Below are positions 44,201 through 47,200 of a stretch of DNA of 64,000 nt, one piece after another. How positions within the stretch are numbered: position 1 is the first letter of the stretch; each line of letters opens with the position of its first letter. Position numbers: made by a program. The DNA comes from Escherichia coli (lineage in GTDB: Bacteria; Pseudomonadota; Gammaproteobacteria; Enterobacterales; Enterobacteriaceae). The DNA is taken from NCBI RefSeq assembly GCF_003334305.1, contig NZ_QOWS01000010.1; one strand, 5' to 3'.

Positions 44201-47200
44201 CCCACTTTTTTCAGCATCTGGTGCGCGATTTCCAGTCGCTGCATTTTCTCTATACCTGCCAATTGCAGGCCGAACGCCACGTTGTCCTGTACATTGCGCC
44301 ACGGTAGTAGCCCTTCATTCTGAAAAACCACCCCGCGCTCTGCTCCCGGTCCCTCAATACGCTTACCCGCCAGTTGAATGCTGCCATGCTGATAAGGCAC
44401 AAAACCGGCAATCAGATTCAGCAACGTGGTTTTACCGCAGCCGGACGGCCCCAGCACCACCAGTAGCTCGCCGCTTTCCAGCGTCAGGTTGATATCTTCC
44501 AGTGCCGGTTTGCCGCCATAATCGGCATAGAGATGAGAGATTTGCAGCATCTGCGCCTCCTTTTATTGCACGAAGCGCGAGGTAACGTACTGGCTGTAAT
44601 CATTCGCTACAGCCGGGACCTTGCCCTGCTCTTTCAAAAACTGCGCGGTGTCGATGATTGCTTTGTTCACCGGTCCGGTCAGTTCTGCCGTTTGTTGCTG
44701 CGGCGTCAGATAGGTATTTCCCTTCACCAGCCCCGGAACGTCACCTTCAGGCACGCCGCTTAAACGCGCCAGTTTGCTGATGTTTTCCGGCTGTTTCAGC
44801 CACGCGTCTGGGTTAGCAATGTACGGTTGCTGAGCATCGATGGCGCTTTTAGCGAACGCTTTCACGACCTCAGGATGTTTCTCGGCAAAATCTTTGCGCA
44901 CCACCCAGACGTCCAGCGTTGGCGCACCCCACTGCCCGACCTGTTCAGAATCGGTCAACACCTTGCCGTCTTTTTCCAGGGCGTTAACCGCCGGTGCCCA
45001 GACATAAGCACCATCAATATCTCCCCGCTGCCAGGCAGCGATAATCGCGGGCGGCTGCAGGTTCACAATCTCCACTTGCCCGGGTTTAATCCCCCAGTGT
45101 TTCAGCGCCGCCAGCAGGCTGTAGTGGGTGGTGGAGATAAACGGTACGGCGATGCGTTTGCCAATCAGATCTTCCGGTTTGCTGATAGTTTTCTTTACCA
45201 CCAGCGCTTCGGAGTTACCCAGTTTTGACGCCAGCAAGAAGACTTCAATCGGCACCTGTTGGCTGGCTGCAACCGCTAATGGGCTGGAACCGAGGTTGCC
45301 GATTTGCACGTCGCCAGAAGCCAGCGCCCGCACGATGCTGGCTCCGCTGTCAAACTTACGCCAGTCCACGGTTGCTCCGCTTTCTTTAGCAAAGGTGTTG
45401 TCGGCCTGAGCCACTTTCGCCGGTTCGGCTGAGGTTTGATACGCCACGGTGACGTTCACCGCCTGTGCCTGAAAAGCGATGAATGCCAGTGCGGCAAGAA
45501 GTGTGTTACGCGATGAAATTGCCATGATTGTCTGCTCCCCTGTCTTGTTATGTGAGCAGTATTCAGGAATAAAAACATTCATTAAAAGAATTAGTCGTTA
45601 TCGCACAGATGATTTTATTCTTAGCAAAAAAACGGCAAAGGAAAGATTAAATATGCAATTACTCCGTTCTAACAATTGGGAAAATTACTACACTTCATTT
45701 TAGTGATGCATAAACAACCACATTACGAGATTTATTACTTCATTATTTCTATCAATATCAATACATATAATAAAACTATTATATTCGCATTGTATATATC
45801 ACTGTATCATTCTCAATCACTCGCATATTACATTCACATAATGTATATAAACAATACTTGTTCACAGAACATATTTTTTAAATGCAATTAATTGACAAAC
45901 TAAATCACATCTAAATACAATGTATAACACAAAATAACTATACATACCAAACATACAAACACTTAACATATGAATTGCATAAAAACATTACCCAGTCGAA
46001 CCTCCGGGTCTGAAAGCCCTTGCTTTTCAGTTATTAGCAACATTTAACATTTATAAATTAACATCTGGCTGCGCCAGAGATTACGTCTCTGAGTGCATCG
46101 TTGTGCTTGTAGTATAATAAATAAAATGGAGTGTCATTAAGTGGATAAGGTTTTAGATTCAGCCCTCCTTTCTTCGGCAAATAAAAGAAAGGGTATCCTT
46201 GCTATTGGCGCACATCCTGACGATATAGAATTAGGCTGTGGCGCATCGCTTGCTCGTCTTGCGCAAAAAGGAATTTATATCGCAGCCGTGGTGATGACTA
46301 CCGGCAACTCTGGTACAGATGGAATAATCGATCGCCATGAAGAATCGCGCAACGCCCTAAAGATATTAGGGTGCCACCAAACTATTCATCTTAATTTTGC
46401 TGACACCCGCGCTCATTTACAGCTCAATGATATGATTTCCGCTCTGGAAGACATCATTAAAAATCAAATTCCTTCTGATGTTGAAATCATGCGGGTATAT
46501 ACCATGCATGATGCCGACCGCCATCAGGATCATCTCGCTGTTTATCAAGCTTCAATGGTTGCCTGCCGCACTATTCCACAAATTCTCGGCTACGAAACCC
46601 CAAGTACCTGGCTTTCATTTATGCCTCAGGTTTTTGAATCCGTTAAAGAAGAATATTTCACAGTCAAACTTGCTGCATTAAAAAAACATAAAAGCCAGGA
46701 ACGACGCGATTATATGCGTCATGATCGCCTGCGTGCAGTTGCACAATTTCGCGGGCAACAGGTCAATAGCGATCTGGGTGAAGGCTTTGTAATTCATAAA
46801 ATGATTCTTTGAGCAAATTGCATGAAAACCTGGATATTTATCTGTATGTCCATAGCAATGTTGCTATGGTTTTTAAGTACGCTAAGACGTAAACCCAGTC
46901 AAAAGAAAGGCTGTATTGACGCCATTATACCTGCGTATAACGAAGGCCCGTGTCTGGCGCAGTCACTGGATAATCTACTGCGTAACCCTTATTTTTGCCG
47001 GGTAATTTGCGTTAACGACGGCTCCACGGACAATACCGAAGCGGTCATGGCGGAAGTCAAACGCAAATGGGGCGACCGCTTTGTTGCCGTCACGCAAAAA
47101 AATACCGGTAAAGGTGGTGCGCTGATGAATGGCCTCAATTATGCCACCTGCGACCAGGTTTTTTTAAGTGATGCCGACACCTATGTTCCGCCCGATCAAG

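What the first reader, a model, noticed from the sequence alone, without database searches (positions are those of the whole stretch)
45526..46140. Gene-free ~600-bp strongly AT-rich tract between tauA and yaiS
This stretch contains long A/T runs (e.g. catattacattcacataatgtatataaacaatac, acatacaaacacttaacatatgaattgcataaaaacattac) and no credible ORF. Such tracts are classic H-NS nucleation sites and often mark the edge of horizontally acquired or silenced DNA. It also holds the likely yaiS promoter (TATAAT 46113-46118) and separates divergent tauA from the yaiSPXO module.
Basis: partly seen in the sequence, partly recalled or inferred. Interest (0 to 1): 0.35.

Follow-up and report, generated by a model that had tools for sequence, protein, structure and literature searches.

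The report
AT-rich silenced spacer between tauA and yaiS
This 615-bp AT-rich stretch of E. coli is a catalogued "promoter island" bound by the silencing protein H-NS, and it lies at the edge of a variable gene cassette next to the known taurine-operon promoter, so it is real but already known.

Summary
Window 45526-46140 is exactly the tauA-yaiS spacer: 615 bp, GC 0.30 against a window mean of 0.515. It contains the lowest-GC 615-bp stretch of the 64 kb and no conserved ORF, Rfam match or stable RNA fold.

It has two parts. The tauA-proximal ~140 bp is the taurine-operon promoter, with a Cappable-seq start site at window 45551 and an upstream block conserved across Enterobacteriaceae. The other ~470 bp belongs to the yaiS-yaiP-yaiX-yaiO cassette, which is variable:
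- 4238 of 5426 complete E. coli genomes carry the tract.
- 594 genomes join tauA directly to frmR.
- 451 genomes carry an unrelated cassette there.

The core, 45679-45987, is a published "promoter island". All three sets of H-NS ChIP studies compared in that paper report H-NS on it, and RNA polymerase binds the spacer in vitro.

One near-consensus promoter facing yaiS, TTGACA-18-TACAAT at 45892-45921, is conserved in E. fergusonii.

The parts
45526..45551 (-). tauA 5' untranslated region (26 nt) with Shine-Dalgarno GGGGAG at 45540-45535. The transcription start is at 45551.
   Evidence: The Cappable-seq start site at U00096.2 384430(+) (PMC4782308 supplement) maps to window 45551, 26 nt upstream of the ATG at 45525. 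Sequence.
45558..45563 (-). tauA -10 hexamer AATACT. The -35 is weak (TTTAAT, 45586-45581), as expected for an activator-dependent promoter.
   Evidence: Its position relative to the mapped start site. AATACTGC is invariant in all 7 enterobacterial tauA upstream regions aligned.
45577..45663 (-). tauA activator region, about -26 to -112. The Cbl (LysR-type) site is reported at -112 to -68, which would be 45619-45663.
   Evidence: The block 45577-45641 is at least 80% identical between E. coli and E. fergusonii, against 53% for the spacer as a whole. TTGCCG.TTTTTT.CTAA and TAATTC.TTTA are invariant across both promoter types and Citrobacter. The Cbl footprint coordinates are from my memory of van der Ploeg et al. 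1997, which could not be opened.
45664..45676 (.). Left boundary of the yaiSPXO variable cassette. All homology to genomes lacking the cassette ends here. Near-identity already ends at 45563, and 45564-45663 is only about 64% identical.
   Evidence: Alignments to Z247 (tauA-frmR) and strain 350.
45679..45987 (.). AT-rich core, the published 'promoter island', bound by H-NS. The plus strand of 45671-45990 has very little G (A138 T105 C57 G20).
   Evidence: PMC3661553 Table 1 entry 383994_309, H-NS code A, with coordinates converted through the tauA ATG. Composition. It is 82% identical between the two E. coli allele classes, against 96-97% for the flanking genes.
45789..45816 (-). Promoter-like TTGAGA-16-TACAAT facing tauA. 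Probably a silent or spurious site.
   Evidence: Found by the scan and listed by Shimada 2014 for the tauA direction. Its -10 is degraded in divergent alleles and it is not conserved in E. fergusonii. Cappable-seq lists no start site on that strand between 383338 and 384430.
45892..45921 (+). Near-consensus sigma-70 promoter TTGACA-18-TACAAT facing yaiS, inside conserved block 45868-45943. The predicted start is about 45927-45929, which gives a leader of about 213 nt.
   Evidence: 11 of 12 consensus matches. Invariant in 5 E. coli alleles. It lies in the only block in the cassette-side part of the spacer that is at least 80% conserved with E. fergusonii. Shimada 2014 lists it as the best-matching promoter sequence for yaiS in this RpoD-holoenzyme-bound spacer. 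The start site itself has not been mapped.
45928..46140 (+). Putative long yaiS leader. The first ~70 nt are G-poor (C/G ratio 4-5), which resembles a Rho loading site. There is no conserved structure.
   Evidence: C/G ratio of 5.0-5.3 in two of the three 78-nt windows starting at 45880-45920 (4.2 in the third); a ratio of 5 or more is reached by 0.03% of windows. Fold z-score -1.06 and no favourable covariation. No Rfam match.
46064..46090 (.). Two overlapping short inverted repeats, TCTGGC-TGC-GCCAGA and CAGAGA-TTACG-TCTCTG, upstream of the proximal -10. A possible operator, with no assigned function.
   Evidence: Largely conserved within E. coli but not in E. fergusonii.
46113..46143 (+). 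Proximal promoter candidate TATAAT (46113-46118), Shine-Dalgarno GGAG (46129-46132) and yaiS GTG start (46141).
   Evidence: 46100-46159 is about 100% conserved in E. coli alleles. An RpoS-holoenzyme SELEX peak at 383868 maps to about 46113. There is no -35, and E. fergusonii reads CATAAC here.
46141..49434 (+). The yaiS-yaiP-yaiX-yaiO cassette that the tract precedes, plus a terminator-like hairpin at about 49361-49382. The right boundary is at 49434/49435.
   Evidence: ORFs. Domains: PIG-L deacetylase, PgaC/IcaA-like GT2, hexapeptide acetyltransferase, YaiO barrel. The right junction comes from alignment to Z247. Coding GC is 0.476, against 0.561 for tauABCD.

Best explanation
The spacer is made of two regulatory regions placed back to back.

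(a) The ~140 bp next to tauA is the sulfate-starvation promoter of tauABCD. It has a start site at 45551, a -10 AATACT, a weak -35, and a LysR-type activator (Cbl/CysB) site reaching to about -112.

(b) The remaining ~470 bp is the upstream region of the variable yaiSPXO cassette. Its core of about 26% GC is coated by H-NS, which keeps the cassette and the many promoter-like sequences of the tract transcriptionally quiet. This is the published 'promoter island' state, in which RNA polymerase binds but little productive RNA is made. Within the core, one near-consensus sigma-70 promoter (45892-45921) is conserved and is the most likely real yaiS promoter. Any transcript that escapes starts with a G-poor, unstructured leader that would favour Rho-dependent termination.

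Shown: the composition, the tauA start site, the cassette's presence/absence polymorphism and its boundaries, the conservation pattern, and (from the literature, for K-12) H-NS and RNA polymerase binding.

Inferred: that H-NS binding actually silences yaiSPXO, which promoter is used, and the role of Rho.
For: - Composition: GC 0.30, and the tract holds the lowest-GC 615-bp stretch of the window.
- H-NS: bound in all three ChIP study sets compared and listed as a promoter island (PMC3661553). An H-NS SELEX site and an RpoD-holoenzyme binding site lie in this spacer (PMC3946193), and there is an RpoS-holoenzyme peak (PMC5493296).
- tauA promoter: Cappable-seq start site 26 nt upstream of the ATG, with no other start on that strand across the tract. 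The upstream block is conserved in seven enterobacterial loci.
- Variable cassette: tract present in 4238 genomes, empty site in 594, alternative cassette in 451, with junctions at about 45664-45676 and 49434/5. Cassette GC is 0.476 against 0.561 for tauABCD.
- Restricted distribution: in the species-representative scan, hits above 48% identity to YaiS were limited to one Citrobacter, where the cassette sits in a different context.
- The AT-rich spacer goes with the cassette, not with tauA. Spacers upstream of yaiS-type cassettes are 412-1042 bp at 29-35% GC in four contexts, although they are not all homologous in sequence. tauA spacers without yaiS are 261-305 bp at 41-44% GC.
- Conservation: the tract diverges at or above the rate of the flanking genes (82% against 96-97%), except for three conserved blocks, one of which is the TTGACA-18-TACAAT promoter.
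Against: - The H-NS data are for K-12, not this strain, and were read from a secondary table. The primary ChIP tables could not be opened.
- No hns-mutant expression data for yaiS, yaiP, yaiX or yaiO were found.
- The canonical H-NS high-affinity motif is not enriched: two 8-of-10 matches, within background.
- The density of promoter-like sites is what the base composition alone predicts: 15 observed against 19 +/- 5 in shuffles, and 3 against 3.4 in the tool's scan. So the promoter island may be a by-product of AT-richness.
- The start site in the yaiS direction could not be checked, because the held Cappable-seq file is truncated before the minus-strand entries.
- The Cbl footprint coordinates are from memory.
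Confidence: 0.8

Rival explanations
1. The tract is neutral spacer. It is non-functional DNA that drifted to high AT content under mutational bias. H-NS and RNA polymerase bind it only because any AT-rich DNA attracts them, with no regulatory effect on yaiSPXO or tauA.
For: The tract diverges faster than the flanking genes (82% against 96-97%). Its promoter-like density equals the expectation from composition. There is no enrichment of the H-NS motif. The spacers upstream of the cassette in ST131 and in Citrobacter are not homologous to it.
Against: The 76-bp block around the near-consensus promoter is at least 80% conserved between E. coli and E. fergusonii, against a 53% background. The last ~40 bp before yaiS is invariant in E. 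coli. Long AT-rich spacers recur upstream of this cassette in four separate contexts, while tauA spacers without yaiS are short and 41-44% GC. That pattern argues for a property that is maintained rather than drift.
Confidence: 0.12
2. The tract hides an unannotated gene: a small RNA, a small protein, or a structured 5' leader or riboswitch controlling yaiS.
For: A strong conserved promoter at 45892-45921 is followed by about 213 nt before the yaiS start. Short hairpins lie at 45990-46030 and 46064-46090. A 35-aa ORF sits on the minus strand at 45862-45969.
Against: There was no Rfam match even at E<=10. The leader folds no better than shuffled sequence (z = -1.06) and the alignment gives no favourable covariation. 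The hairpin at 45990-46009 is lost in divergent alleles. The ORFs are interrupted or shortened in other alleles and lack a Shine-Dalgarno sequence. MG1655 annotation has nothing here. Cappable-seq shows no start on the tauA-direction strand within the tract.
Confidence: 0.05
3. The tract is a remnant of a mobile element or an attachment site that brought in the cassette.
For: It sits exactly at a presence/absence boundary. IS1 copies are inserted in or next to it in some genomes (H15).
Against: There are no flanking direct or inverted repeats longer than 7 nt at the two junctions and no tRNA gene. No integrase or transposase lies in the cassette. There are no matches in phages or true plasmids. 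The boundary looks like a homologous-replacement breakpoint inside the tauA promoter: identity drops from 97% to 64% at 45563.
Confidence: 0.03

Closest known systems
E. coli 'promoter islands' (Shavkunov, Panyukov and Ozoline; 78 regions in MG1655)
   Same: It is one of them: entry 383994_309 yaiS/tauA. It is AT-rich and dense in promoter-like sites. RNA polymerase holoenzyme binds the spacer in vitro, H-NS is reported on it, and it is associated with genes predicted to be foreign.
   Different: The published island covers only the core (45679-45987), not the tauA promoter or the yaiS-proximal 150 bp. Here the density of promoter-like sites is no higher than the base composition predicts. One of the sites is conserved across species and is probably a real promoter.
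H-NS xenogeneic silencing of AT-rich acquired DNA (for example the leuO, bgl and proU regulatory regions, or Salmonella pathogenicity-island promoters)
   Same: GC is about 20 points below the genome average. It sits at the edge of a variable, lower-GC cassette. H-NS occupancy is reported.
   Different: No high-affinity nucleation motif was found. No antisilencing factor and no derepression data are known for this locus. The cassette has no mobility genes.
The Cbl/CysB-dependent tauABCD promoter (van der Ploeg et al. 1997)
   Same: The tauA-proximal ~140 bp of the tract is that promoter. The start site 26 nt upstream of the ATG is confirmed by Cappable-seq, and the upstream block is conserved.
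   Different: That promoter accounts for only about a quarter of the tract. E. coli carries two deeply diverged versions of it (64% identical upstream of the -10), and which version is present depends on which cassette lies upstream.

Membership tests
Promoter island (Panyukov & Ozoline catalogue) | Listed in the published set of 78 MG1655 regions of at least 300 bp with an extreme density of predicted start points | tested here: met
   PMC3661553 Table 1 entry 383994_309 yaiS(-)/tauA(+). It maps to window 45679-45987 through the tauA ATG. The window is 99.2% identical to K-12 here.
Promoter island (Panyukov & Ozoline catalogue) | More promoter-like sites than chance | tested here: not met
   The count is about 4 times the window average per 614 bp (15 against 3.5). 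It is no higher than in shuffles of the same composition (19 +/- 5; 3 against 3.4). The excess is therefore explained by AT content. PlatProm itself was not available.
Promoter island (Panyukov & Ozoline catalogue) | RNA polymerase binds but little full-length RNA is made | tested here: inconclusive
   RpoD and RpoS holoenzyme SELEX peaks fall in the spacer. Cappable-seq shows no start on the tauA-direction strand within the tract other than the tauA start. The data for the yaiS-direction strand are truncated in the held file.
H-NS-silenced xenogeneic DNA | AT content well above the genome average | tested here: met
   GC 0.30 (core 0.26) against 0.515, and it contains the lowest-GC stretch of the 64 kb.
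H-NS-silenced xenogeneic DNA | H-NS occupancy in vivo | not testable with these tools
   Literature only, and only for K-12: code 'A' (all ChIP studies) in PMC3661553 and an H-NS SELEX mark in PMC3946193.
H-NS-silenced xenogeneic DNA | High-affinity nucleation motif (tCGATAAATT-like) | tested here: not met
   Only two 8-of-10 matches (45886 minus strand, 46050 plus strand). The background is 0.83 per 614-bp tile, with a maximum of 5.
H-NS-silenced xenogeneic DNA | Adjacent genes are accessory or horizontally acquired | tested here: met
   There are three haplotypes at the locus (4238, 594 and 451 genomes). The cassette sits in other contexts in Citrobacter FP75 and ST131. Cassette GC is 0.476 against 0.561 for tauABCD.
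H-NS-silenced xenogeneic DNA | Derepression when hns is deleted | not tested
   No expression data were found. This needs RNA-seq of an hns mutant.
Classical genomic island | Integrase, tRNA target or flanking direct repeats | tested here: not met
   There is no tRNA gene, no repeats longer than 7 nt at the junctions and no mobility genes. The cassette behaves as a variable cassette exchanged by homologous recombination.
LysR-type (Cbl/CysB) activated tauA promoter | Mapped start site with an activator site upstream of a weak -35 | tested here: met
   The start site is at 45551. The block from -26 to -90 is conserved across species and haplotypes. The footprint limits of -112 to -68 are recalled from van der Ploeg 1997 and were not verified.
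Structured RNA (small RNA or riboswitch) | Rfam match, or stable conserved structure with covariation | tested here: not met
   No Rfam match. Fold z-score -1.06. The covariation term is unfavourable.

The most novel reading that the evidence does not exclude
The long AT-rich spacer may be a maintained part of the yaiSPXO cassette rather than an accident of this locus. The cassette encodes a PIG-L deacetylase, a PgaC/IcaA-like synthase, an acetyltransferase and an outer-membrane barrel. That gene set suggests a cryptic pathway for a GlcNAc-type surface polysaccharide.

In four independent contexts the cassette is preceded by a spacer of 412-1042 bp at 29-35% GC, although the spacer sequences are not all homologous: E. 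coli tauA, E. fergusonii tauA, the ST131 ibrAB island, and Citrobacter FP75. Under this reading the tract is a silencer conserved in composition rather than sequence. It would form a double lock: H-NS over a strong conserved promoter, followed by a G-poor leader that loads Rho. An unknown signal would open it.

In addition, acquiring the cassette replaced the tauA promoter up to its -10. E. coli lineages therefore carry two versions of the taurine-operon control region that are only 64% identical and may respond differently to sulfur starvation.
Probability: 0.25. Interest if true: 0.45.

Novelty: already known. Interest (0 to 1): 0.2.

Why it matters
Little is new for the tract itself. Its AT-richness, H-NS occupancy, RNA polymerase binding and promoter-island status are published for K-12, and the tauA promoter was mapped in 1997.

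This analysis adds context that may be useful:
- It gives exact boundaries for a three-haplotype polymorphism at the tauA-frmR locus across 5426 genomes.
- It shows that the haplotype break lies inside the tauA promoter, at the -10, so E. coli carries two old promoter versions.
- It identifies one cross-species conserved promoter inside the promoter island as the probable yaiS promoter.
- It shows that long AT-rich leaders recur upstream of an uncharacterised polysaccharide-like cassette.

These are leads for anyone studying yaiSPXO or strain differences in taurine use. They are not a discovery.

Tried and rejected
- Rfam at E<=10 over 45300-46400 gave only two chance eukaryotic-family hits.
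- Tandem and dispersed repeats: only short chance matches.
- ORFs of 30 aa or more in the tract are not conserved between alleles.
- A 25-aa leader ORF starting at the ATG at 45970 is frameshifted in A3-type alleles (read from the alignment).
- RNA structure of the putative leader: z = -1.06 and no covariation.
- Sigma-54 promoter: yaiS appears in RegulonDB's sigma-54 list, but nothing in the spacer matches. The best site, TGGCGCATCGCTTGCT at 46239-46254, is inside the ORF.
- H-NS high-affinity motif: not enriched.
- Mobile-element origin: no phage or true plasmid homology (the five 'plasmid' hits are records of 1.2-4.9 Mb that I take to be mislabelled chromosomes). No tRNA gene and no junction repeats.
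- Literature that could not be reached: van der Ploeg 1997; Thomason 2015; supplements for the Rend-seq boundary paper PMC11092163, ROSE and Kahramanoglou papers. The minus-strand part of the Cappable-seq table is truncated.
That locus was recovered through TauA homologues instead.
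Full report
**1. The observation**

The window is E. coli. Over 45400-46300 it is 100% identical to strain A7 and 99.2% to K-12, in the reverse orientation relative to MG1655. tauA runs on the minus strand with its ATG at 45525-45523. The yaiS-type PIG-L deacetylase gene starts with GTG at 46141 on the plus strand. The finding's coordinates, 45526-46140, are therefore exactly the 615-bp spacer, the same length as in MG1655.

GC is 0.301. All 615-bp windows of the 64 kb have a mean of 0.515 and an sd of 0.048. Only 0.09% are as low, and the global minimum (0.293) starts at 45545. The core 45541-45980 is 0.26. The quoted strings and the TATAAT at 46113-46118 are present.

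**2. What is not there**

- Rfam gives nothing credible.
- There are no real tandem or dispersed repeats.
- The 71-aa ORF (plus strand) and the 35-aa ORF (minus strand) are interrupted or shortened in divergent E. coli alleles and have no ribosome-binding site.
- MG1655 RefSeq annotates no feature in the spacer.
- The tract has no homologue in phages or true plasmids.
- The region 44000-51000 contains no tRNA gene, and the cassette junctions have no repeats.

**3. The tauA side**

The Cappable-seq table of Ettwiller et al. lists a start site at U00096.2 384430(+). In version 2 coordinates the tauA ATG is at 384456. I recalled that value; it is consistent with the +776 offset to NC_000913.3 385232. 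The start site therefore lies 26 nt upstream of the ATG, at window 45551. That places AATACT (45563-45558) as the -10 and a weak TTTAAT as the -35.

I aligned 230 nt upstream of tauA from seven loci: two E. coli yaiS-type alleles, E. fergusonii, the E. coli 'empty' and O157-type haplotypes, a Citrobacter, and one unnamed enterobacterium. The invariant parts are the 5' UTR, AATACTGC, TAATTC.TTTA around -40, and TTGCCG.TTTTTT.CTAA around -80 to -95. Beyond about -95 to -112 nothing is shared.

This fits the Cbl (LysR-type) activator site that I recall from van der Ploeg et al. 1997 as -112 to -68, which would be window 45619-45663. That paper could not be opened, so the footprint limits are from memory. 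About 140 bp of the 'gene-free tract' is thus the known, activator-dependent taurine-operon promoter.

**4. The yaiS side is cassette DNA**

Of 5426 complete E. coli genomes, 5420 match the tauA end of the query, but only 4239 match across the spacer. Searching with 45671-46140 alone finds the tract in 4238 genomes: 3261 at 95% identity or more and 1038 at 80-90%.

In strain Z247, tauA is followed directly by frmR. This 305-bp spacer contains a REP-like element and occurs in 594 genomes. In strain 350 and in O157:H7, a cassette of response regulator, MASE1 histidine kinase, uhpC and an ABC transporter fills the site. That arrangement occurs in 451 genomes.

Alignments place the left edge of shared sequence at about 45664-45676 and the right edge at 49434/49435, just upstream of frmR. 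The cassette holds yaiS, yaiP, yaiX and yaiO plus a terminator hairpin. Its coding GC is 0.476, against 0.561 for tauABCD.

The break is not clean on the left. tauA itself is 96.7% identical between the window and Z247. Identity falls to 64% from 45564, immediately upstream of the -10 hexamer, through the activator region, and then to nothing.

The Z247 and O157-type promoter version closely resembles that of Citrobacter, where tauA is also next to the same regulator, kinase and transporter genes. The K-12-type version resembles that of E. fergusonii, which also has yaiS next to tauA. E. coli therefore carries two old alternative haplotypes, plus a deletion form. The exchange point lies inside the tauA promoter, which suggests replacement by homologous recombination. 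No integrase, tRNA gene or junction repeats were found.

**5. Published status of the core**

Panyukov and Ozoline (PMC3661553, Table 1) list '383994_309 yaiS(-)/tauA(+)' among 78 MG1655 promoter islands. Converted through the tauA ATG, this is window 45679-45987. It is flagged as associated with foreign genes by three prediction sets. Its H-NS code is 'A', meaning bound in all the studies compared (Grainger; Oshima; Kahramanoglou).

Shimada et al. (PMC3946193) found RpoD-holoenzyme binding in this spacer by genomic SELEX and mark it as containing an H-NS SELEX site. They list TTGACA-18-TACAAT for yaiS and TTGAGA-16-TACAAT for tauA. These are the same two sites the scan finds at 45892-45921 (plus strand) and 45816-45789 (minus strand). 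An RpoS-holoenzyme peak at 383868 maps to about 46113.

**6. What the sequence adds**

(a) Promoter-like sites are four to five times denser than the window average, but no denser than in shuffles of the same composition. The canonical H-NS motif is not enriched. The properties of the promoter island follow from AT-richness.

(b) Between the two E. coli allele classes the cassette part of the tract is 82% identical. For comparison, tauA is 96.7%, yaiP 96.3% and yaiS 91.4%. Most of the tract is therefore under little sequence constraint.

(c) Against E. fergusonii, whose spacer is 661 bp at GC 0.286 and 53% identical overall, only three blocks stay at 80% or more:
- 45499-45565: the start of tauA, its UTR and the -10.
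- 45577-45641: the activator region.
- 45868-45943: TTGACA-18-TACAAT with its AT-rich upstream flank and the first ~15 transcribed bases.

I therefore rank the distal promoter as the more likely yaiS promoter, with the proximal one as a possible second, perhaps RpoS-type, promoter. Neither start site could be checked, because the held Cappable-seq file is truncated before the minus-strand entries.

(d) On the tauA-direction strand no start site is listed between 383338 and 384430. TTGAGA-16-TACAAT is therefore silent in those conditions.

(e) A transcript from about 45928 would have a leader of about 213 nt. Its first ~70 nt have a C/G ratio of 4-5, and a ratio of 5 or more is reached by only 0.03% of 78-nt windows. 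It has no significant or conserved structure. That fits a Rho loading region rather than a riboswitch, but this is inference only.

(f) Long AT-rich spacers recur upstream of this cassette in other places:
- ST131/O25:H4, next to ibrAB, a copy 82% identical in DNA: 1042 bp at GC 0.31.
- Citrobacter sp. FP75, between treF and a yhjA-like gene on one side and fimbrial genes on the other: 412 bp at GC 0.35.

Neither spacer is homologous to this tract. tauA spacers without yaiS are 261-305 bp at GC 0.41-0.44. The AT-rich excess belongs to the cassette, not to tauA.

**7. Mechanism**

The best-supported account is as follows. The tauA-proximal quarter of the spacer is the Cbl/CysB-dependent promoter. 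The rest is the regulatory region of the accessory yaiSPXO cassette, held in an H-NS-coated state that is bound by polymerase but poorly transcribed. It contains one real strong promoter, and Rho probably acts as a backstop.

Composition, boundaries, polymorphism, conservation and the tauA start site are shown here. H-NS and polymerase binding are shown in the literature for K-12. Silencing of yaiSPXO, the choice of promoter and Rho involvement are inferred. Confidence is 0.8.

The rivals are neutral AT-drifted spacer (0.12), a hidden RNA or peptide gene (0.05) and a mobile-element remnant (0.03).

**8. Verdict**

Interest is low (0.2).

The most novel reading not excluded is that the AT-rich tract is a silencer conserved in composition rather than sequence. 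It would accompany a cryptic polysaccharide-like cassette, and acquiring that cassette would have replaced the tauA promoter up to its -10. I give that reading a probability of about 0.25 and moderate interest if true.

Noticed in passing
window 46696 (yaiS codon 186): The window strain encodes an intact 223-aa YaiS. MG1655 has C->T here (CAG->TAG), which explains its annotated 185-aa 'YaiS'. The small gene ykiC is annotated on the opposite strand, overlapping the 3' end of the truncated yaiS and the now-untranslated remainder of the ancestral reading frame.
   Followed up: yes
window 46126-46143: ATG GAG TGT CAT TAA GTG: in the window and K-12 allele, a TAA cuts an upstream ATG off from the GTG start. 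This leaves a 4-codon mini-ORF that ends directly against the yaiS start. A3-type E. coli alleles (CAT AAA GTG) and E. fergusonii read through from that ATG, which gives a protein 5 residues longer at the N-terminus (228 aa in A3-type E. coli).
   Followed up: partly
window 46239-46254 (+), inside yaiS: A near-consensus sigma-54 element, TGGCGCATCGCTTGCT, lies 100 bp inside the ORF. yaiS appears in RegulonDB's list of sigma-54 promoters (PMC3118216). No sigma-54-like site exists in the spacer itself.
   Followed up: partly
window 46141-49352: yaiS, yaiP, yaiX and yaiO encode a PIG-L/BshB-like deacetylase, a PgaC/IcaA-like family-2 glycosyltransferase, a GlmU-C-terminal-like hexapeptide acetyltransferase and the YaiO outer-membrane barrel. 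This gene set suggests synthesis and export of a GlcNAc-type polysaccharide. No function is known.
   Followed up: partly
L094 (E. coli O25:H4 CU568-3, 2,994,343-2,997,549): At least one ST131 (O25:H4) genome, and probably the 575 genomes whose best match to yaiS-yaiP is only 80-90% identical, carries a second yaiSPXO-like cassette (82% identical in DNA). It sits in another island next to ibrAB and IS66 remnants. Whether these are the genomes with the 'empty' tauA-frmR site was not checked directly. yaiO is at least 80% covered in 4911 of 5426 genomes, more than the 4238 that have the tract.
   Followed up: partly
L002/L093 (strain 350), L090, L091, L092: The O157-type cassette next to tauA has a GerE-type response regulator, a MASE1 histidine kinase, a UhpC-like MFS protein and an afuABC-like ABC transporter. 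The regulator, kinase, MFS and binding-protein genes next to tauA are in the same order in Citrobacter and another enterobacterium, and those loci also share its tauA promoter version. It is probably the ancestral arrangement.
   Followed up: partly
L003 6290-6330 (strain Z247, tauA-frmR spacer): The 'empty' site contains a REP-like palindromic element, GCCTGATGTGACGCTCACGCCTCTTATCATGCCTAC, at the point where the cassettes sit in other strains.
   Followed up: no
window ~46643, minus strand (U00096.2 383338 +): Cappable-seq lists a start site antisense inside yaiS, pointing toward the AT-rich tract and tauA. It lies downstream of ykiC and so is not the ykiC promoter.
   Followed up: no
window ~45749 and elsewhere in the tract (L004; hit H15): IS1 copies are inserted in the tract in some genomes. 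In one of them yaiS is deleted and tauA is a pseudogene. About 60 genomes have a disrupted or partial tract.
   Followed up: no
L088 1877-2230 (E. fergusonii): In E. fergusonii, yaiS is followed by a fragment resembling the N-terminus of LacZ instead of yaiP, yaiX and yaiO. Only the deacetylase gene and the AT-rich spacer are retained at the tauA locus in that strain.
   Followed up: no
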